A stretch of DNA of 64,000 bases from assembly GCA_041664365.1 (NCBI GenBank), contig JBAYKW010000007.1, positions 434-64,433 of the forward strand, given 5' to 3'. A program made the translations under genes and the position numbers. Below are positions 8,208 to 33,151 of the stretch, piece after piece. Under the pieces are notes generated by a model that was not told where the DNA came from, did no database searches, and saw only the letters and a program-made list of their open reading frames with translations. Positions within the stretch are counted from its first letter, which is position 1, and each line of letters starts with the position of its first letter. The DNA is from Patescibacteria group bacterium. GTDB taxonomy: Bacteria > Patescibacteriota > Patescibacteriia > UM-FILTER-42-10.

Positions 8208-9504
8208 CCTTCAAGATTTCACCGATAGTATAAAGTGAGCCGGTAACAATTACTGTTCCATTATTCCCCGCCAATCTCTTCGCCATCACGATACCATCAT
8301 CCAATGAAGCGGTAATTATCCCTTTTGGATAATATTTTTTTAATTTTGATGCACGATAAAAATCCCTAAGATCATCAATCTTCGTTACATCCGGAAAAAT
8401 CAGTTTATCAGAAAATTTTGCCAGCGTACGCAATATAGCCGGTACCTGTTTTTTCGTGTTCTTTATACTGACTAGAAAAACAGTATTATGCGGTTTAACA
8501 CCCACGTCATGCAGTGCCTTGACTAATGCCCTGATGCTGAATAGATTATGCGCACCGTCCAGGATCACCATGGGATTTTTCTGCCAGATCTGGAATCTTG
8601 CCTCGTGCGCGGTGTTTCCGGCAGCTTTAATAATAGCCTGTGGCGGTATCACAAAACCCTGATTACTAAGTTGCCTGGCGGAAGCAAAAGCACAGGCAAA
8701 GTTTTCCGCCTGATGCCTGCCGATCAAGGACAGTCTCAGATTTCGATATATATCACCCTGATAACTGATATTAATATAAGTACCGGTCAAATCGACTTTT
8801 TTGATTGAATATTTTAGATCCTTGTTAATATTAATCAATGAGGCTTTTTTAGCTTTCACTTTATTTTTTATTACTTTCAGCGCGTTACCCTTAGCTGCTG
8901 TTGAAACTGCGTCATTGTTTTGGATTATGCCGGCCTTTTCTCCCGCTATTTTGGTAATTGTATTACCCAGGGATTTTGTGTGATCAAAGCTAATATTGGT
9001 AATGATTTTATTTTTCAAACCAACCGCCGTTGTTGCATCTAGCCGACCGCCCATGCCCACTTCGATAACAACTACATCTGTTTTTTCTTCGGCGAAATAC
9101 TGGACCGCCAGAGCGGTAGTAAACTCAAAAAATGTAACGTGATCTCCGCGTTTGCCGATTTCTTTCAGTAAGGGGATCATCCGGTCGCCGATTTTTTTCA
9201 CTCTCCGAAGAGTAATCGGCCTACCGTTGATCATAATCCTTTCACTGGGCGATACTAAATACGGAGAATAAAATGATCCGGTCTTATACCCAGCTTCCCT
9301 CAGAATCTTTTCTAGAAATGCCACGGCAGAACCCTTTCCTTTTGTGCCAGCTACCTGCACACCGATCAGTTTTTTTTCGGGACTGCCCATTTTCTGAAGC
9401 AGTGATTTGACCCGGTGCAGTTGCAAAAAATCCTTACTGACAAAGCGCGGGTCGTAAGGTTTCAGATATTTTTGGTACTGATTGAATATTTCTTTTGCTC
9501 TCAC
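8197..9504 (-). CDS. folC: Folylpolyglutamate synthase / dihydrofolate synthase
   Basis: Mur-ligase P-loop VAGTKGKGS; 435 aa. Confidence 0.8.
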   Translation of the reverse strand: MRAKEIFNQYQKYLKPYDPRFVSKDFLQLHRVKSLLQKMGSPEKKLIGVQVAGTKGKGSAVAFLEKILREAGYKTGSFYSPYLVSPSERIMINGRPITLRRVKKIGDRMIPLLKEIGKRGDHVTFFEFTTALAVQYFAEEKTDVVVIEVGMGGRLDATTAVGLKNKIITNISFDHTKSLGNTITKIAGEKAGIIQNNDAVSTAAKGNALKVIKNKVKAKKASLININKDLKYSIKKVDLTGTYINISYQGDIYRNLRLSLIGRHQAENFACAFASARQLSNQGFVIPPQAIIKAAGNTAHEARFQIWQKNPMVILDGAHNLFSIRALVKALHDVGVKPHNTVFLVSIKNTKKQVPAILRTLAKFSDKLIFPDVTKIDDLRDFYRASKLKKYYPKGIITASLDDGIVMAKRLAGNNGTVIVTGSLYTIGEILKEKK

Positions 9505-10334
9505 TATTTTTTACGCAACTGTTTTAATAATTTAATATCATTTTCTCTGCCTTCGGCAGGAGTTTCCAGAATAAAATCTACATTTCTTAATTTCGGATGG
9601 TTGATTAACGCCTCAAATCCATCTTTGCCAATCTCTCCTTGGCCGATATGTTCATGCCGGTCAACCTTGGCGTTTAGTTCTACTTTAGAATCATTGGCGT
9701 GGATTAATTGCAACAAATCAATCCCGACAACCTCATCAAACTTCTTGAGTGTTTCATCAACATCTTTTTTAGTCCGCAAATCATAACCGGAAGCAAACGC
9801 GTGTGCCGTATCAAAACAAACTGCCACTTTTTTATGATTTACTTTTTTTATAATCCTGCCAATCTCCTCGAAACTGTCACCGATAACACTCCCGGAGCCA
9901 GCAGCAATCTCCAATAAAAAAGTCGCTTTACCAGTATATCCTTTCAGTAATTCTTTTATTCCGTCTATTACCATTTGCAGTGCTTTTGCTCGCGTAAAAT
10001 CCTTTGATGAGCCTAAGTGGGTCATTACTGCTACAACACCTAATTGCGAGGCGCGATCCAATTCCTCACGAATAATACTGATAGAACCGTTCCGAACCCG
10101 ATCCTGTTTTGAAGCTAAATTAATATAGTAAGGTGTGTGAATATACGCCTTACCTAGTCCGCTAGCTTTAATATTTTTCTGAAATTTTTTTACAACTTCA
10201 TCGTTGATTTCAGGTGCTTTGCCTCCGCGCGGTGAACGCGAAAACATCTGGAAACATTCACAGTTTTCAGTAAAGGCATTCAGCGGAGCATTTTCCATTC
10301 CGCCGGCTATGGATACATGGGCGCCAATATTCAT
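9504..10334 (-). CDS. nfo: Endonuclease IV (deoxyribonuclease IV)
   Basis: MNIGAHVSIAGG...HANDSK...HEHIGQGEIG; Nfo metal-binding motifs. Confidence 0.85.
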   Translation of the reverse strand: MNIGAHVSIAGGMENAPLNAFTENCECFQMFSRSPRGGKAPEINDEVVKKFQKNIKASGLGKAYIHTPYYINLASKQDRVRNGSISIIREELDRASQLGVVAVMTHLGSSKDFTRAKALQMVIDGIKELLKGYTGKATFLLEIAAGSGSVIGDSFEEIGRIIKKVNHKKVAVCFDTAHAFASGYDLRTKKDVDETLKKFDEVVGIDLLQLIHANDSKVELNAKVDRHEHIGQGEIGKDGFEALINHPKLRNVDFILETPAEGRENDIKLLKQLRKK

Positions 10335-10362
10335 AGCCTAATTATAGCAGATGCCGACAAAA

Positions 10363-10391
10363 TTGACATTGAACTATTTCATTGTTATTAT
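10363..10391 (+). promoter_or_regulatory. Near-consensus sigma70 promoter (TTGACA, 17 bp spacer, TATTAT)
   Basis: aaTTGACAttgaactatttcattgtTATTATgg, about 65 nt upstream of the GTG at 10461. Confidence 0.5.
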
Positions 10392-10460
10392 GGCGACTCA
10401 GGTTAGTGCAAATTAGCATGAACCTAAACCCGCACATTTTAATGGTGGAAGGAGCCAGTC

Positions 10461-10868
10461 GTGGCTGACGATGGAAAGAAGCGACACGCTTTTGAATACC
10501 TTGTGCACTGCCTCATGGGAGACGTAGCACATGCTAGGGTATTGCGTACCCTAATCCAAACAGGGTTCGTTACCCACGAGGAATTGGGCATCAAGCCCGA
10601 AGACGTGGACACATTCCAAGCACTGTCCCGTATCGCGGACCCCAAAGAACGTGCCATTACGGCATTCCGCGGTTGCCGTGAAGGCAACGTTCTTGCCAAC
10701 TTCGGCGTGATCCAATTTCTTTTCCGTTCCCGCCAGATCAGGCCCACCGATCTGCGCGAGGGTGACGACAGCATCCTAAAGGTAGGCTCCGACCTGAGTC
10801 ATTTTCACAAAGCGCACACCGCACATCTCGCCAGGATTCTCCCATCGGAAAAATCCGCGCAAGACTAA
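10461..10868 (+). CDS. Hypothetical protein (135 aa), high-GC, GTG start
   Basis: Shine-Dalgarno GGAAGGAG 7 nt before the GTG; clean ORF ending at a terminator. Confidence 0.5.
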   Translation: MADDGKKRHAFEYLVHCLMGDVAHARVLRTLIQTGFVTHEELGIKPEDVDTFQALSRIADPKERAITAFRGCREGNVLANFGVIQFLFRSRQIRPTDLREGDDSILKVGSDLSHFHKAHTAHLARILPSEKSAQD

Positions 10869-10885
10869 CCCCTTGCGTTTTTTTA
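10857..10885 (+). terminator. Rho-independent terminator CGCAAG...CTTGCG + T7 (copy 1 of a duplicated terminator)
   Basis: Hairpin then TTTTTTT; near-identical copy at 11924-11951. Confidence 0.6.
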
Positions 10886-10937
10886 TTCTGCATATACAAA
10901 ATAAATCCGCCTCTGGCGGGTACTATGTTTATATCCA

Positions 10938-10966
10938 TTGACACTATGATTCAATCATGATAAATT
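10938..10966 (+). promoter_or_regulatory. Sigma70-like promoter (TTGACA, 17 bp spacer, TAAATT) with a perfect palindrome ATGATTcAATCAT in the spacer
   Basis: ccaTTGACActatgattcaatcatgaTAAATTcc. Confidence 0.45.
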
Positions 10967-10991
10967 CCACAACCTCCTCCTAGACAGTCTT

Positions 10992-11018
10992 CAGTTGTGC
11001 TCACGGTGAGGACAACTG
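10992..11018 (+). promoter_or_regulatory. 13-bp-arm near-perfect inverted repeat in the 5'UTR (CAGTTGTGCTCAC g GTGAGGACAACTG); operator or RNA hairpin
   Basis: One mismatch across 13-bp arms; lies between the promoter and the Shine-Dalgarno of the 11048 gene. Confidence 0.4.
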
Positions 11019-11047
11019 AATCACCTGTTTGTTCAGGGAGGAAACTA

Positions 11048-11341
11048 ATGACGTTTATTGGCAACACTCAACTCCCGAAATTCGGAGACATAATCCAGAT
11101 CACCATTCCCGGCAACCCCGGTTTCGTGCTGAAGGTCACCGTGATCTCCGAATGGGCCATCGACCAGGAGGAAGAAGAACACATCAGCTTCGTGTTTTTC
11201 CTGCCCCGTGACTCGTTCCCTCTGGTGTTCGCCCGTCGGGTCGTAACCCTGGACAAGACCAATGAGAAGTGGACCGTCCGCATCAAGAACGGCGAGTCCA
11301 CCATTATCCAGGAAGTCACCGTGAACATCCTCCGCGACTGA
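11048..11341 (+). CDS. Hypothetical protein (97 aa), high-GC
   Basis: Shine-Dalgarno AGGGAGG before the ATG; ORF ends at a terminator. Confidence 0.5.
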   Translation: MTFIGNTQLPKFGDIIQITIPGNPGFVLKVTVISEWAIDQEEEEHISFVFFLPRDSFPLVFARRVVTLDKTNEKWTVRIKNGESTIIQEVTVNILRD

Positions 11342-11367
11342 CTTCATCCCGCTCTTTCCCGCCACTC

Positions 11368-11391
11368 CACCATTTGGAATGGCTTTTTTTA
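11368..11391 (+). terminator. Terminator CCATTtggAATGG + T7 (copy 1 of the second duplicated terminator type)
   Basis: Hairpin plus T-run; similar copy at 11574-11602. Confidence 0.55.
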
Positions 11392-11422
11392 TTCTCACCA
11401 AAACGTAACCAATTATAGAAAG

Positions 11423-11450
11423 TTGACTTTCCATTCATAAAATATATAAT
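11423..11450 (+). promoter_or_regulatory. Consensus-like sigma70 promoter TTGACT, 16 bp spacer, TATAAT
   Basis: agTTGACTttccattcataaaataTATAATtt. Confidence 0.5.
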
Positions 11451-11456
11451 TTCTTT

Positions 11457-11602
11457 AGTCATACGTGGAGCAGGGGGTCTTCGTTTTGGACAGCATCCTC
11501 CACGGAGGGTGTCTGGGGTTAAAATCCCAGCCGGAGATCCCCTCTCCACCAAATATCAACGCTCTTTCCTAATCCATTCCTCCCTTTGGGATGGTTTTTT
11601 TT
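11457..11602 (+). ncRNA. Candidate structured RNA (small RNA or cis-regulatory leader) ending in an intrinsic terminator
   Basis: Transcript from the consensus promoter; nested helices (CTGGGGuuaaaauCCCAG, GGAGGG...CCCTCTCC); terminator hairpin plus T8 at 11574-11602; no convincing ORF. Confidence 0.35.
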
Positions 11603-11634
11603 ATTTTGACAGATTTTTTGCACCGTGTTATGTT

Positions 11635-11925
11635 ATGCCAACTGCCTTTCAGCAGAGAACCGACACCCGCGACTCAAGGAGAATAATATTGCTCTCGAAA
11701 CGCAGAATCAGAAGGCTCGTACGGCGCACCATCGCGTCATTTGTCGGCATTATTTTCGGTCTGGTTCCTGCCTGGTTCCTTCTTTATGATCTACACACAA
11801 CTCAAGGTAACAAACTCTATTTTGCCAAATGGTTATGGCCAATACTTACTGTGCAGTTCTTTCTGATCATTTTCACCTTCGCCTGGATCTGGGCGATCTG
11901 GACCAATCGGATCCCAGAACTCTAA
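11635..11925 (+). CDS. Small two-TM membrane protein (96 aa), high-GC; no obvious Shine-Dalgarno
   Basis: Arg-rich N-terminus then two strongly hydrophobic helices; the ORF ends exactly at a terminator. Confidence 0.35.
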   Translation: MPTAFQQRTDTRDSRRIILLSKRRIRRLVRRTIASFVGIIFGLVPAWFLLYDLHTTQGNKLYFAKWLWPILTVQFFLIIFTFAWIWAIWTNRIPEL

Positions 11926-11951
11926 CGCAAGCTGACCCTTGCGTTTTTTTA
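11924..11951 (+). terminator. Terminator CGCAAG...CTTGCG + T7 (copy 2)
   Basis: Near-identical to 10857-10885. Confidence 0.6.
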
Positions 11952-12014
11952 TACAAAGAAAAAAGGCGACCCTGCAGAGGTATCGCCTAAAACTCTCATA
12001 AACAGCAACGATGC

Positions 12015-12521
12015 TTAACGCGGACGATGGTGAGGATTGTACTTGCGGAAAGGCTCCCGCAGTTCTTGTGCCCGATAGAGCACGAGGCTCAGTTCGAGCA
12101 TCTCGTCCAGGGAATCGACCAGAAACACATTGGCAAGCCGGAGCTTGCGAAGGTGTTCGCGCACGAGTGCGCGTGCGCGCAGACTCTCCTTGCGCGCAAC
12201 GGGATCGTTGAGCTCATCGTTCAGCTTGTCATCGATCATGATGACGAACTCCCGATGATCATCGAGCCGGATGGCGTTCAGGATGCTGAACCCGGTTTCA
12301 GCCAGCGACCCGGTCCCGTAGGACTCGTCGGTCACGGGGAAGAGGATGACTGCATCCTCAGCGAGATGCTGTGCTTCCTCCACGGCACATTCGGGGGTCC
12401 AGTCCTCGACTTGGGGATTGAAGAAAGCGACACCAAGATCCTGGTACAGCTTGATGAACTTCGCGCGCCAGGTACTTGATCCACAGGTCCCGAACAATCC
12501 GATTGTTAGCATTACGCTCAC
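12015..12521 (-). CDS. Nucleoside 2-deoxyribosyltransferase-like (Nuc_deoxyrib_tr superfamily) protein, high-GC
   Basis: IGLFGTCG...DESYGTGSLAETGFSILNAIRLDD resembles the D.GT..E.G.A core of PF05014, assigned from memory; 168 aa. Confidence 0.45.
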   Translation of the reverse strand: MSVMLTIGLFGTCGSSTWRAKFIKLYQDLGVAFFNPQVEDWTPECAVEEAQHLAEDAVILFPVTDESYGTGSLAETGFSILNAIRLDDHREFVIMIDDKLNDELNDPVARKESLRARALVREHLRKLRLANVFLVDSLDEMLELSLVLYRAQELREPFRKYNPHHRPR

Positions 12522-12597
12522 CCTTTCATCCTTTTGTCCACTGACACGAGTGAACAGTCATCACTAGTCGCCACGAATGACATTGTGACGACACGAT

Positions 12598-12626
12598 AGG
12601 ATATCATAAAATATGTTTCATGTCAA
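12598..12626 (-). promoter_or_regulatory. Sigma70-like promoter (minus strand: TTGACA, 17 bp spacer, TATCCT) for the 12015-12521 gene
   Basis: Reverse complement reads TTGACAtgaaacatattttatgaTATCCT. Confidence 0.4.
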
Positions 12627-12654
12627 GACTTAATCATATTGTATAAATAAAAAA

Positions 12655-12690
12655 GAGGCGGCAACGAAGATGAAGCCGCCCTGTGCCTGA
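12655..12690 (-). terminator. Intrinsic terminator (GGCGGCttcatcttcgttGCCGCC + T-run on the minus strand)
   Basis: Hairpin followed by TCTTTTTT when read on the minus strand. Confidence 0.55.
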
Positions 12691-12997
12691 CTGGGATCAT
12701 TTGTCCCTCTTCCTGGGCTAGCCAGGCGATAGCCGAAAATGCGTGATGCATTTCCCTACCATTCGCCTTTTCAGGCGGGGGAAAAGGAGCTCGAGCTCTC
12801 TCTGTGGAGAAAGAAATGATAGCGACCCTTCTCTCGCAAGGGGAGTGTTTGCCTCGGCGCAGTGTGGTCCGGCTCCGTATCCTTGCCTTTTCCCCGAAAC
12901 AGATCGGGGACGGAGAGACGCTCCTCTCGACGCTGACTTTCAGGCGATCTGGGCCGTCCAGTGAATCATACGTCACCTCCCTTCCGGTTTTGGACGC
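12691..12997 (-). ncRNA. Candidate independent ~340-nt GC-rich transcript (small RNA, or mRNA of a doubtful small ORF) between its own promoter and terminator
   Basis: Minus-strand promoter at 13004-13031 and terminator at 12655-12690; strong Shine-Dalgarno AAGGGAGG plus ATG at 12976, but that ORF reads through the terminator. Confidence 0.3.
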
Positions 12998-13133: not shown

Positions 13134-14036
13134 TCAGTTGAGATCGAACTGCACAGACCAGATAATTGTCGGGTGGCTGTGCTGCTGAAGCACCAGATTG
13201 GGTTGGAACTTCAGTGCCCCCTGTCGTAGCTCGGCACCGACAACAACCTCGACATCATCCGTCACCAGTTGTTCTTGTGCCATCGTCAGTAGTGCAAATT
13301 GAGTCCGCTGGGTACAGCGCGCGGTCAGTGCGAATGATTCGTTCAAATCCGCCACAGCAGTAACCAGCCAGCCCCGGCTGTGTTGGAAATCTCTCCGCCA
13401 CAGCATGGCGGATTCCACACTCAGTCCAGATGCCGGACAAACCGACAACTTGCCGTAATACAGTGTACGCTCACCCGGCGGCTGACGACCGGACTGAAAT
13501 GCTCCGGAGAGACGCAGTGGTCCAATCCAGGACGACGTAACAGATGCTGTGAAGTCGCGTGACTGGTTGTCGTCCGGGACATTATGTCCCGATCCGTTGA
13601 ATACGCACGACTGGAATGATCCGAGCCGATTCGCGAACAGGATCGATACGCCGATGTCATACTGGTCAGTAATGTAATAGTCCGTCAACGCATAGGCTAC
13701 GAACCGCTTTTTCCCCGGCGAGGATTCAACCTGCATCATCGGGTTGGTGAACTGACCCAGACGCAATTTGCTCCTGCCTAAGATAGGCAGAGTCATCCGG
13801 TATTCGAGATAGACCTGAAGTGGGATTGTGTTCTTCCCCACCTGCGCCTCACCGAACAGTGTGAGACTGTCCATACTCGCGGTAAGGAATGGCCGAAGCC
13901 GGCGTAGTTCGAAGCCCTGCCCCGCATCCTGAATCTGACCGTAACCGCCGGCATGCAGAACAGGAAAATATTCCCCCGTCTGAGCCATGGCGCTCGCTGT
14001 ACAGAACAGCATTACTACCAGAACCACGTTTCTCAT
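13134..14036 (-). CDS. Secreted putative outer-membrane beta-barrel (porin-like) protein, high-GC
   Basis: Signal peptide MRNVVLVVMLFCTASAMA/QT; amphipathic beta-strand periodicity; aromatic-rich C-terminus ...WSVQFDLN. Confidence 0.5.
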   Translation of the reverse strand: MRNVVLVVMLFCTASAMAQTGEYFPVLHAGGYGQIQDAGQGFELRRLRPFLTASMDSLTLFGEAQVGKNTIPLQVYLEYRMTLPILGRSKLRLGQFTNPMMQVESSPGKKRFVAYALTDYYITDQYDIGVSILFANRLGSFQSCVFNGSGHNVPDDNQSRDFTASVTSSWIGPLRLSGAFQSGRQPPGERTLYYGKLSVCPASGLSVESAMLWRRDFQHSRGWLVTAVADLNESFALTARCTQRTQFALLTMAQEQLVTDDVEVVVGAELRQGALKFQPNLVLQQHSHPTIIWSVQFDLN

Positions 14037-14087
14037 GCGCGTCCCTCTCTTTCTGGATGTACACACCCTCCTTAAGCAAAGTTGTGT

Positions 14088-32501: not shown

Positions 32502-32577
32502 TGGTGGAGATGAGGGGACTCGAACCCCTAACCCCTTCCATGCCATGGAAGTGCTCTACCAATTGAGCCACATCCCC
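32502..32577 (-). tRNA. tRNA-Ala (anticodon GGC), CCA encoded
   Basis: Manual cloverleaf: 7-bp acceptor stem with the G3:U70 Ala identity pair, D-arm GCTC/GAGC, anticodon loop aTGGCat, T-loop TTCGAGT. Confidence 0.8.
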
Positions 32578-32946
32578 ATTTATATTTAATTCAACAATTT
32601 ATTACATAACTGAATTTGAAGTAATCAAATTATATTATGGTTGAGGCAATATGTCTAGAGAATTAATAAAGTAATTAAATATTTTGTAATGCTGTTGATT
32701 AACTGTTTATATTATGTAAACAAAGTAAGATATTATATTTGCTCATAGCATGACAAAAGCAAAGACTATAATTAATTTGTATTAACCATTTTAATATTTT
32801 CGATGGTTATAAAACAATATTTATCTCTCTTAATCAATATATGATAATGGACTCAATTAAAAAACAAAATGTTCCACGTGGAACATTTATCCTAATATAG
32901 TAACAATGGGGGATTGTCTTAAATATTCATACGTTTGACCCGTGTC

Positions 32947-33020
32947 TGGTGGAGATACTGGGAATCGAACCCAGGCCTCAGCAATGCGAATGCTGCGTAA
33001 TACCACTTTACTATATCCCC
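32947..33020 (-). tRNA. tRNA-Ala (anticodon CGC), CCA encoded
   Basis: Manual fold: G3:U70, anticodon loop tTCGCat, T-loop TTCGATT. Confidence 0.75.
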
Positions 33021-33076
33021 AGCAAACATGGATCAGTAAATCAAGAATTAATACTCAATTTACAAATAATACATGG

Positions 33077-33151
33077 TGGTGCCCCCGGCAGGAATCGAAC
33101 CTACATCTAAAGCTTAGGAGTCTCTCGTTCTATCCATTGAACTACGGGGGC
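33077..33151 (-). tRNA. tRNA-Arg (anticodon CCT) with a 31:39 A-G mismatch; CCA encoded
   Basis: Manual fold: acceptor GCCCCCG/CGGGGGC, D-arm GTTC/GAAC, anticodon loop cTCCTaa, T-loop TTCGATT. Confidence 0.55.

What the first reader, a model, noticed from the sequence alone, without database searches (positions are those of the whole stretch)
12015..12521. Nuc_deoxyrib_tr-like gene with its own promoter and long 5'UTR in the high-GC island
The motif around DESYGTGSLAETGF fits the nucleoside 2-deoxyribosyltransferase / nucleotide-processing fold. This fold recurs as an effector domain in nucleotide-centred conflict systems. Here it stands alone behind a TTGACA/TATCCT promoter next to an enigmatic ~340-nt transcript.
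Basis: partly seen in the sequence, partly recalled or inferred. Interest (0 to 1): 0.55.

Follow-up and report, generated by a model that had tools for sequence, protein, structure and literature searches.

The report
Stand-alone NDT-like enzyme tied to NAD salvage
A real, self-contained gene for a small sugar-base-bond-cleaving enzyme of the deoxyribosyltransferase/TIR fold, from an uncharacterised family shared by ultra-small Patescibacteria and large phages, whose relatives repeatedly sit beside NAD-recycling genes, so it probably frees nicotinamide from a pyridine nucleotide and is not a defence effector.

Summary
The ORF is real. The likely coding region is 12015-12512 (-), 165 aa, starting at the ATG at 12512. 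It has a near-consensus promoter, a 5' leader of about 78 nt and an intrinsic terminator. It matches Pfam PF15891 (Nuc_deoxyri_tr2) at E 1.8e-6, 28.6 bits against a cut-off of 30. It does not match PF05014, LOG/SLOG or any PADLOC model.

It belongs to a strongly conserved family of about 165 aa. There were 990 hits, at 60-73% identity across Patescibacteria, and relatives occur in many large viral contigs. Glu72 is invariant and lies where the NDT/DNPH1/TIR catalytic Glu lies.

No partner gene is universal. However, in 25 of 166 related loci, in more than 10 different gene orders, the gene lies next to nicotinamidase, PncB, NadE, NadR-like, Macro, Nudix or NADAR genes, often with overlapping stop and start codons.

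Best reading (confidence 0.45): a pyridine-nucleotide N-glycosidase (NMN or NAD+ to nicotinamide) that feeds Preiss-Handler salvage.

In this genome it is one cassette inside a 2.3-kb variable segment (10336-12649) that a syntenic relative lacks. The window has no NAD-salvage genes nearby.

Its conflict-effector framing is not supported.

The parts
12015..12512 (-). Coding sequence of the NDT-like protein (165 aa plus stop); start at ATG 12512
   Evidence: ORF list. It is 100% identical to the NCBI 165-aa protein WCW66_04875. Homologue N-termini align to this ATG. PF15891 match at E 1.8e-6.
12285..12338 (-). Active-site segment PVTDESYGTGSLAETGFS (residues 59-76). The codon for the invariant Glu72 is 12297-12299.
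   Evidence: Glu72 is invariant in both the close alignment (A1) and the diverse alignment (A3). In the model it sits at the N-terminus of helix 3, directly after strand 3. A local hhalign alignment places it on the DNPH1 Glu that I recall, from memory, to be the catalytic residue, but this alignment is not significant (E 0.17).
12598..12626 (-). Sigma-70-like promoter: TTGACA, 17 nt with TG, TATCCT
   Evidence: Consensus scan, 10 of 12 matches with TG extension. Such sites are enriched in the island, 14 against 3.6 +/- 1.9. No transcript data are available.
12513..12590 (-). Inferred 5' leader of about 78 nt
   Evidence: Inferred from the promoter position. Fold z-score -1.5. No Rfam match at E <= 1. 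Not conserved in homologous loci.
11958..11988 (-). Intrinsic terminator of the cassette (10-bp GC-rich hairpin plus U6)
   Evidence: Fold of 11945-12020 (-): -20.9 kcal/mol, z -2.6.
10336..12649 (.). Variable (accessory) segment that carries this cassette together with four other small promoter-terminator units. It is absent from the syntenic relative L094.
   Evidence: blastn homology to L094 runs from window 16000 to 12650 and resumes at 10335. In between, L094 carries different ORFans at 9366-12607.

Best explanation
**What it is.** The gene encodes a stand-alone N-glycosidase, possibly also a base-exchange transglycosidase, of the NDT/DNPH1/TIR fold superfamily (Pfam PF15891 type).

**Proposed chemistry (inferred).** The invariant Glu72, at the start of helix 3, attacks or stabilises C1' of a ribosyl nucleotide. 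The glycine/serine-rich loop after strand 1 (F7-G8-T9-x-G11-x-S13-x-W15-R16), S/T64, S69 and R114 hold the phosphate and ribose.

**Proposed substrate (inferred from gene neighbourhoods of orthologues).** The most likely substrate is a pyridine nucleotide: NMN, NAD+, or possibly the riboside NR.
- The released nicotinamide would enter the Preiss-Handler route: nicotinamidase PncA, then PncB, then NadD, then NadE.
- The ribosyl product (ribose-5-phosphate or ADP-ribose) would be handled by Nudix or Macro enzymes.

**Status in this genome.** The family is an accessory, horizontally mobile gene shared by Patescibacteria and large phages. Here it is a monocistronic promoter-gene-terminator cassette inside a 2.3-kb variable segment.

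**Shown:** the ORF, fold class, residue conservation, neighbourhood statistics and hot-spot position.

**Inferred:** catalysis, substrate and physiological role.
For: **Fold and residues.**
- PF15891 matches for all 31 aligned members.
- Model pLDDT 85.5.
- Foldseek matches TIR NADase domains (probability 1.0, TM about 0.5) and a Pithovirus NDT-like protein (TM 0.74).
- F7, G8, R16, P33, L70 and E72 are invariant. T9, W15, E46, H49, D53, S69 and R114 are nearly invariant across sequences down to 32% identity.

**Neighbourhoods.** A local HMM scan of 166 loci found 25 with NAD or ADP-ribose genes. In 16 of these the nearest such gene lies within about 500 nt. More than 10 gene orders occur:
- L035: NDT-PncA-NadE-PncB, co-directional, with a 4-nt overlap.
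- L024: NadE-NDT, 75 nt apart, with PncA and PncB divergent.
- L126: PncB-NDT.
- L112: NDT-PncB.
- L140: PncA-NDT..PncB..NadE.
- L034: NadE-x-NDT.
- L170: Macro-NDT-Nudix..PncA.
- Phage clade: PncB..NDT-Macro..NadR-like.
- L001: NADAR-NDT.

**Neighbour identities.**
- PncB: NF003704, 484 bits against a cut-off of 379.
- NadE: NF002730, 868 bits.
- NadR-like: TIGR01526, E 4e-56.
- Macro: above the Pfam cut-off and closest to the DarG macrodomain.
- Nicotinamidase: a profile of the neighbour family hits yeast Pnc1 at 2.6e-9 and M. tuberculosis PncA at 2.9e-6.

**Transfer to the window protein.** Members linked to NAD genes keep every conserved residue of the window protein and are 49-68% identical to it.

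**Precedents.**
- The NDT/TIR-like DUF4062 (NIR) domain is a Glu-dependent NADase (bioRxiv 10.64898/2026.09.04.749371).
- CD38 performs base exchange on NMN (PMC11903787).
- Phage NadR-like enzymes rebuild NAD+ (PMC13464706).
Against: - The window has no PncA, PncB, NadE, NadR, Macro or Nudix homologue in 64 kb. About 80% of family loci show no NAD gene nearby.
- The neighbour HMMs were built ad hoc from the loci themselves. No matched control set of loci was scanned. Some loci are redundant (L127 resembles L021; by my reading of shared contig lengths, L108 = L007, L167 = L054 and L174 = L055).
- No biochemical data exist for any PF15891 member (no paper found).
- The similarity to DNPH1 is not significant.
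- A constitutive NADase would be wasteful or toxic, which favours NMN or NR, or tight specificity. This cannot be resolved in silico.
- The active-site loop (residues 61-80) is the least confident part of the model (pLDDT 59-76).
Confidence: 0.45

Rival explanations
1. **DNPH1/NDT-like purine-pyrimidine enzyme.** A (deoxy)nucleoside 5'-monophosphate N-glycosidase or nucleoside 2-deoxyribosyltransferase. It would serve base and sugar salvage, or sanitise the nucleotide pool, in organisms that lack de novo nucleotide synthesis. In phages it would reshape dNMP pools.
For: - The Pfam family name and match.
- A local alignment of T61-x-x-S64-x-G-x-G..E72-x-G onto the DNPH1 sequence VTQPSLGVGYELG. 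From memory, this segment includes the phosphate-binding Ser and the catalytic Glu of DNPH1.
- Weak structural matches among viral predicted structures to phage NDTs and CMP/hmCMP hydrolases.
- Patescibacteria depend on nucleotide salvage (general knowledge).
Against: - The hhalign result is not significant (E 0.17). There is no PF05014 match.
- Among 141 cellular and 148 viral neighbour proteins, no nucleoside kinase, phosphorylase, RNR or thymidylate-synthase theme appears. There is one IMPDH.
- NAD and ADP-ribose genes recur instead.
Confidence: 0.22
2. **Conflict or counter-defence enzyme acting on ADP-ribose linkages.** It would hydrolyse or transfer ADP-ribosyl-N-base bonds. Candidate activities are reversal or writing of nucleic-acid ADP-ribosylation, degradation of TIR-derived signals, or NAD+ depletion. 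It would work with, or be opposed by, Macro or NADAR enzymes.
For: - Immediate adjacency to DarG-like macrodomains in at least 3 lineages: L063 overlap, L057 29 nt, L070 113 nt, L170 13 nt, L089, L165.
- Immediate adjacency to an AdfN/gp30.3-type NADAR in L001. The function of AdfN is taken from bioRxiv 10.1101/2024.07.11.602962.
- Common in large phages.
- TIR-like structure.
- Located in a variable hot spot in the window.
Against: - No PADLOC match.
- No sensor, toxin or antitoxin partner in most loci, including the window.
- Co-operonic with housekeeping PncA, PncB and NadE in Patescibacteria. This argues against a toxic activity.
Confidence: 0.2
3. **Non-catalytic NAD/ADP-ribose-binding protein**, acting as a sensor or regulator of the salvage genes.
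For: Small single-domain protein that co-localises with NAD genes.
Against: - The Glu at the catalytic position is invariant, together with a full set of conserved polar residues.
- There is no DNA-binding domain.
Confidence: 0.05

Closest known systems
Pfam PF15891 (Nuc_deoxyri_tr2, 'nucleoside 2-deoxyribosyltransferase like')
   Same: It is the only significant profile match (E 1.8e-6), and all 31 aligned relatives match it. The best structural relative among viral predicted structures is annotated with this family.
   Different: The window protein scores 28.6 bits, below the 30-bit cut-off. The match covers only residues 9-79. The family has no characterised member that I could find. The C-terminal half (RKESLRARALV...NPH) is specific to this subfamily.
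DNPH1/Rcl and Lactobacillus-type NDT (PF05014)
   Same: Same fold class. The Glu lies at the start of the helix after the central strand. There is a glycine-rich loop after strand 1. A local motif T-x-x-S-x-G-x-G..E-x-G aligns.
   Different: No PF05014 match. No match to solved-structure sequences. hhalign gives E 0.17. The gene context points to pyridine nucleotides, not to purine or pyrimidine nucleotides.
TIR-domain and DUF4062 (NIR) NADases
   Same: The top Foldseek matches among solved structures are plant TIR NADase domains. The Glu sits in the equivalent position. NIR shows the same mixed pattern of NDT and TIR structural matches and is a Glu-dependent NADase.
   Different: No TIR or DUF4062 profile match. 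TM is only about 0.5. The protein is not fused to, or paired with, sensor modules. It is encoded with NAD-synthesis genes, not as an abortive-infection effector.
Retron type II NDT effectors (Retron-Eco1/Sen2)
   Same: They are described as only distantly related to PF15891 (PMC7736814). They are N-glycosidase-fold effectors.
   Different: Those effectors carry a C-terminal DNA-binding domain and sit next to a reverse transcriptase and msr/msd. None of that is present here.
Phage NAD+ reconstitution pathways (NARP2, NARP3)
   Same: In one phage clade the gene lies between PncB and a NadR-like NMN adenylyltransferase/kinase. The NadR-like enzyme is the catalytic part of NARP3.
   Different: The NDT-like protein is not a described component of any NARP. 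No PnuC was seen next to it.

Membership tests
PF15891 Nuc_deoxyri_tr2 | Profile match at Pfam's gathering score (30 bits) | tested here: inconclusive
   The window protein scores 28.6-28.7 bits at E 1.8e-6, just below the cut-off. All 31 aligned homologues match, best E 1.2e-8. The precomputed annotation lists PF15891 for most relatives.
PF15891 / NDT superfamily | Three-layer alpha/beta (flavodoxin-like) fold with five parallel strands | tested here: met
   AlphaFold2 model with pLDDT 85.5 and pTM 0.83, and element order E-H-(E)-H-E-H-E-H-E-H. Foldseek TM 0.74 to a Pithovirus NDT-like protein.
NDT superfamily | Conserved acidic nucleophile (Glu) at the N-terminus of the helix that follows the central strand | tested here: met
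   Glu72 is invariant in A1 and A3. It follows strand 55-60 and its loop, at the start of helix 70-81. Its catalytic role is not tested.
PF05014 Nuc_deoxyrib_tr (classical NDT / DNPH1) | Profile or sequence similarity to characterised NDT or DNPH1 | tested here: not met
   No Pfam match at E <= 1. Sequence and profile searches of solved structures found no NDT or DNPH1. hhalign against human DNPH1 gave E 0.17.
LOG / SLOG | Profile match to LOG or SLOG families | tested here: not met
   No such family at E <= 1.
TIR domain | TIR profile match, or strong structural superposition | tested here: inconclusive
   No Pfam TIR match. Foldseek matches plant TIRs at E 2e-4 to 5e-2, probability up to 1.0, but TM only 0.44-0.54.
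Known anti-phage defence systems (PADLOC) | Match to a defence-system protein model, or a conserved multi-gene partner | tested here: not met
   Only a chance-level Cas11b match at E 0.036. No neighbour is conserved across loci.
NAD salvage gene cluster member (functional grouping) | Recurrent, order-independent co-location with pncA, pncB, nadE or nadR | tested here: met
   For the family: 25 of 166 loci, more than 10 gene architectures, and 16 with the nearest such gene within about 500 nt. For the window copy itself: not met, as no such gene occurs in 64 kb.
Pyridine-nucleotide N-glycosidase (for example EC 3.2.2.14) | Release of nicotinamide from NMN or NAD+ | not testable with these tools
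   Requires an enzyme assay.

The most novel reading that the evidence does not exclude
The family may be an ADP-ribosyl-handling enzyme on an NDT/TIR fold. It would use or cleave the N-glycosidic ADP-ribosyl-base bond, with NAD+ as donor and a Glu72-ribosyl intermediate. It would pair interchangeably with Macro or NADAR glycohydrolases, as DarT does with DarG2 or DarG1. That would make it a new class of writer or eraser of nucleic-acid or nucleotide ADP-ribosylation, used by large phages and by Patescibacteria in host-parasite conflicts. A milder novel variant is that it is the long-sought gene for the orphan NMN nucleosidase of the pyridine nucleotide cycle; its orphan status is from my memory and was not checked here.
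Probability: 0.12. Interest if true: 0.8.

Novelty: new variant of a known kind. Interest (0 to 1): 0.5.

Why it matters
- Patescibacteria are obligate symbionts with minimal metabolism. How they obtain and recycle cofactors is poorly known.
- A conserved, uncharacterised N-glycosidase-fold protein that is co-operonic with nicotinamidase, PncB and NadE would add a step to their NAD economy: freeing nicotinamide from scavenged or spent pyridine nucleotides.
- The same protein lies next to NadR-like, PncB, Macro and Nudix genes in large phages. This would add a component to the set of phage genes that manipulate NAD+.
- It would also give a first functional handle on Pfam PF15891.
- The prediction can be tested directly with one recombinant protein and an E72Q control.

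Tried and rejected
- **Solved-structure sequence searches.** Searches with the single protein, a close profile and a diverse profile gave only chance matches: MavC, a Baeyer-Villiger monooxygenase and Voa1.
- **Other libraries.** NCBIfam, PHROGs and PADLOC gave nothing meaningful.
- **hhalign against human DNPH1.** I first verified the recalled sequence. The comparison was not significant.
- **Riboswitch or RNA element in the 5' leader.** No Rfam match and an ordinary fold energy.
- **First neighbour clustering of 47 cellular loci.** It gave no shared partner. The only cluster found in 6 loci was a mix of unrelated ABC ATPases.
- **L007 neighbour.** I first read it as NadR-like. It is closer to CoaD plus a P-loop ATPase, so I dropped it.
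- **N-terminal extensions in longer family members.** They are heterogeneous or likely mis-called starts and were uninformative.
- **Other ORFs of the island.** They have no counterparts next to NDT-like genes elsewhere.
- **Viral scan with the diverse alignment A3.** It failed because no stretch was conserved enough. A1 was used instead.
- **Chimeric assembly as the source of the high-GC island.** Rejected. The flanks are collinear with a related genome, and that genome's variable segment is also GC-rich.
- **One cluster look-up.** It failed on a frame error and was not repeated.

Full report
**1. The observation**

The ORF at 12015-12521 (-) is present and contains the quoted motif. Thirty homologues all start M-x-x-[IV]-G-[LM]-F-G. 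The identical NCBI protein, 'MAG: hypothetical protein WCW66_04875 [Patescibacteria group bacterium]', is 165 aa. The start is therefore the ATG at 12512, not the GTG at 12521.

The window is part of ENA contig k141_641551, 76.7 kb.

The quoted promoter exists: TTGACA, a 17-nt spacer with TG, then TATCCT, at 12626-12598 (-). Promoter-like and terminator-like sites are enriched in the 4-kb island, at 14 against 3.6 +/- 1.9 and 11 against 3.9 +/- 1.9 respectively.

The inferred leader is about 78 nt. It shows no unusual folding (z -1.5) and no Rfam match. A hairpin followed by a U-run ends the unit at 11958-11988.

The gene is 57% GC with GC3 of 69%, in a 41% GC window.

**2. Fold and family**

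- Pfam gives PF15891 (Nuc_deoxyri_tr2) at E 1.8e-6 and 28.6 bits, against a cut-off of 30.
- PF05014, LOG/SLOG and TIR families give nothing at E <= 1.
- NCBIfam, PADLOC and PHROGs give nothing meaningful.
- All 31 aligned members match PF15891.

The protein search returned 990 relatives. The closest are 60-73% identical proteins of about 165 aa from Magasanikbacteria, Parcubacteria, Paceibacterota and unnamed metagenome contigs. An exhaustive profile search found 1149 cluster representatives at E <= 1e-3, including tandem two-domain and three-domain forms.

Conservation is unusually strong, with 50 invariant columns among 31 sequences. Across members down to 32% identity:
- invariant: F7, G8, R16, P33, L70, E72;
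- nearly invariant: T9, W15, E46, H49, D53, S69, R114.

The AlphaFold2 model (pLDDT 85.5) is a five-stranded alpha/beta fold, with Glu72 at the start of the helix after strand 3.

- Among solved structures, Foldseek's top matches are plant TIR NADase domains, at weak TM of about 0.5.
- Among viral predicted structures, the top match is a Pithovirus 'Nucleoside 2-deoxyribosyltransferase like protein' at TM 0.74.
- Sequence and profile searches of solved structures find no relative.
- A profile comparison with human DNPH1, whose recalled sequence I first verified, is not significant. It does align S64 and E72 with a Ser and a Glu of DNPH1 that, from memory, are its phosphate-binding and catalytic residues.

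**3. Genomic setting in the window**

A related genome (L094) is collinear with the window from NusA through trigger factor. It also shares the 310-aa ORF and the whole ~340-nt unit (window 16000 down to 12650). Collinearity resumes from endonuclease IV onward (window 10335 downward).

Between these points the window carries 2.3 kb (10336-12649) and L094 carries 3.2 kb of unrelated ORFans. Both segments are GC-rich. The NDT-like cassette is therefore one of five small promoter-terminator units in a variable hot spot. The breakpoint lies exactly between the terminator of the ~340-nt unit and the -35 box of the NDT-like gene.

None of the other island ORFs accompanies NDT-like genes elsewhere.

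**4. Distribution**

- The GTDB species scan, limited by the search patterns, found 43 loci. They come from many Patescibacteria classes, including the cultured Minisyncoccus archaeiphilus. A few records are labelled Clostridia, Bdellovibrionota, Bacteroidales and others.
- IMG/VR holds 39 loci at 33-61% identity, many on contigs of 200-620 kb.
- GenBank phages with relatives include the Lak megaphages, Pseudomonas phage D6, Serratia phage KpGz_1 and Clostridioides phage phiCD418.
- The metagenome scan found 301 loci.
- A neighbour-joining tree interleaves viral and cellular sequences.

The family is accessory and mobile. It is not a core Patescibacteria gene.

**5. What the neighbours say**

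No partner is universal. A theme emerged step by step.

*Phage clade L057, L063, L070-L075.* The gene lies among these genes:
- PncB (NF003704, 484 bits against a cut-off of 379);
- a NadR-like NMN adenylyltransferase/ribosylnicotinamide kinase (TIGR01526, E 4e-56);
- a macrodomain closest to the DarG macrodomain (Pfam Macro 26.8 bits against 22; NF048014 at E 7.6e-15).

*Patescibacteria loci.*
- L024 has NadE (NF002730, 868 bits) 75 nt upstream, with PncB and two copies of an unannotated family divergent from it.
- L035 has NDT-x-NadE-PncB, co-directional, where x overlaps the NDT stop by 4 nt.
- That unannotated family is a nicotinamidase. Its profile matches yeast Pnc1 (2.6e-9), M. tuberculosis PncA (2.9e-6) and five further nicotinamidases as the top solved-structure hits.
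- L001 has an AdfN/gp30.3-type NADAR 49 nt upstream. AdfN is a DNA ADP-ribosylglycohydrolase.

*Independent test.* I fetched 80 metagenome loci and scanned all 166 loci with HMMs built from these neighbours.
- 25 loci carry at least one such gene; 24 of these are among the 126 loci with at least 5 kb of sequence.
- In 16 loci the nearest such gene lies within about 500 nt.
- New architectures appeared: L126 PncB-NDT, L112 NDT-PncB, L140 PncA-NDT..PncB..NadE, L170 Macro-NDT-Nudix..PncA (tightly packed), L165 Macro-NDT..PncA, and L034 NadE-x-NDT.

More than ten different gene orders argue for functional linkage and against inherited synteny. Members linked to NAD genes retain every conserved residue of the window protein and are 49-68% identical to it.

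*Caveats.*
- The HMMs were built ad hoc.
- No control loci were scanned.
- Some loci are redundant.
- About 80% of loci, including the window, show no NAD gene nearby.

**6. Mechanism**

*Established chemistry of the superfamily (general knowledge).* A carboxylate at this position attacks or stabilises C1' of the (deoxy)ribose. This expels the base, and water or a second base resolves the intermediate.

*Precedents.*
- TIR and the NDT/TIR-like DUF4062 (NIR) domain cleave the nicotinamide-ribose bond of NAD+ with an equivalent Glu.
- CD38 exchanges the base of NMN.

*My reading.* Given the neighbours, the most likely reaction is release of nicotinamide from NMN, NAD+ or NR. The nicotinamide would go to PncA, PncB, NadD and NadE, or to a NadR-like enzyme in phages. 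Ribose-5-phosphate or ADP-ribose would go to Nudix or Macro enzymes.

The many conserved Ser, Thr and Arg residues suggest a phosphorylated substrate.

I give this reading 0.45. The rivals are:
- a DNPH1/NDT-type enzyme of purine-pyrimidine nucleotide salvage (0.22);
- an ADP-ribosyl-linkage enzyme used in conflict or counter-defence, suggested by the tight pairing with DarG-like Macro and AdfN-like NADAR (0.20);
- a non-catalytic binder (0.05).

**7. Comparison and novelty**

The protein is a borderline-scoring member of PF15891. That family has no characterised representative in the literature I could search.

It fails membership tests for PF05014, LOG/SLOG, TIR profiles and known defence systems.

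It works most like a TIR or NIR type NADase, or a DNPH1-type nucleotide N-glycosidase. It is encoded as a stand-alone metabolic or accessory gene.

The 'conflict effector' frame is not supported.

The NAD-salvage association appears to be new, since no paper links the two, and it is directly testable.

Noticed in passing
window 12650-12995 (-): The '~340-nt transcript' is a conserved, apparently non-coding unit. It aligns with L094, L095 and L096 at about 78% identity, with indels of 1, 2, 8, 1, 1 and 3 nt. It ends in a conserved terminator. The two-sequence consensus fold has 95 pairs, of which 10 show changes on both sides and none is broken. There is no Rfam match at E <= 1, and ARAGORN finds no tmRNA. 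Its upstream promoter is weak by the consensus scan (not listed). It is a candidate new structured RNA. Only two distinct sequences are available.
   Followed up: partly
window 11457-11605 (+): A second small unit lies between a TTGACT-16-TATAAT promoter (11423-11450) and a terminator (11574-11594). It folds into a very stable multi-branched structure: -60.8 kcal/mol, z -4.9, with 0 of 200 shuffles as stable. It has no Rfam match and lies inside the variable segment.
   Followed up: partly
window 13134-14066 (-): A 300-310-aa ORF with a signal-peptide-like N-terminus. It has no Pfam, NCBIfam or PADLOC match, and only 3 clusters among 5.8 billion proteins (100%, 88% and 64% identity). All sit at the same position, downstream of trigger factor, in related genomes. 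It is a lineage-restricted secreted or membrane protein.
   Followed up: partly
window 10336-12649 vs L094 9366-12607: There is a variable hot spot between the conserved ~340-nt unit and endonuclease IV. The two related genomes carry entirely different sets of GC-rich ORFans there. In the window each unit has its own near-consensus promoter and terminator, and terminator sequences are duplicated (11362-11398 resembles 11574-11610; 10870-10886 is identical to 11936-11952). No integrase or flanking repeats were found.
   Followed up: partly
L024 515-1387 and 1564-2424; L035 995-2059; L140 5154-6191; L170 10086-10889 and others: A divergent nicotinamidase family of about 270-350 aa. Pfam's Isochorismatase model misses it at the gathering score (23 bits against 27), but a profile links it clearly to solved Pnc1 and PncA structures. 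It is widespread next to PncB and NadE in Patescibacteria and phage-like contigs.
   Followed up: yes
L057 3589-5637, L071 4023-5993, L073 4035-5993 (IMG/VR contigs): An ORF resembling a TonB-dependent receptor (Plug plus beta-barrel) lies immediately upstream of the NDT-like gene in phage-like contigs. Peptidyl-tRNA hydrolase PTH2, RNA ligase and RlaP genes also recur nearby. This is an odd cargo for phages.
   Followed up: no
proteins P0213-P0221, P0270, P0231: The family also occurs as tandem two-domain proteins of about 330-370 aa, and as a 749-aa GC-rich protein with three near-identical repeats. This suggests that the functional unit is a dimer or higher oligomer.
   Followed up: no
window 32502-33151 (-): Three tRNA genes, Ala-GGC, Ala-CGC and Arg-CCT. 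Nothing about them is unusual.
   Followed up: no
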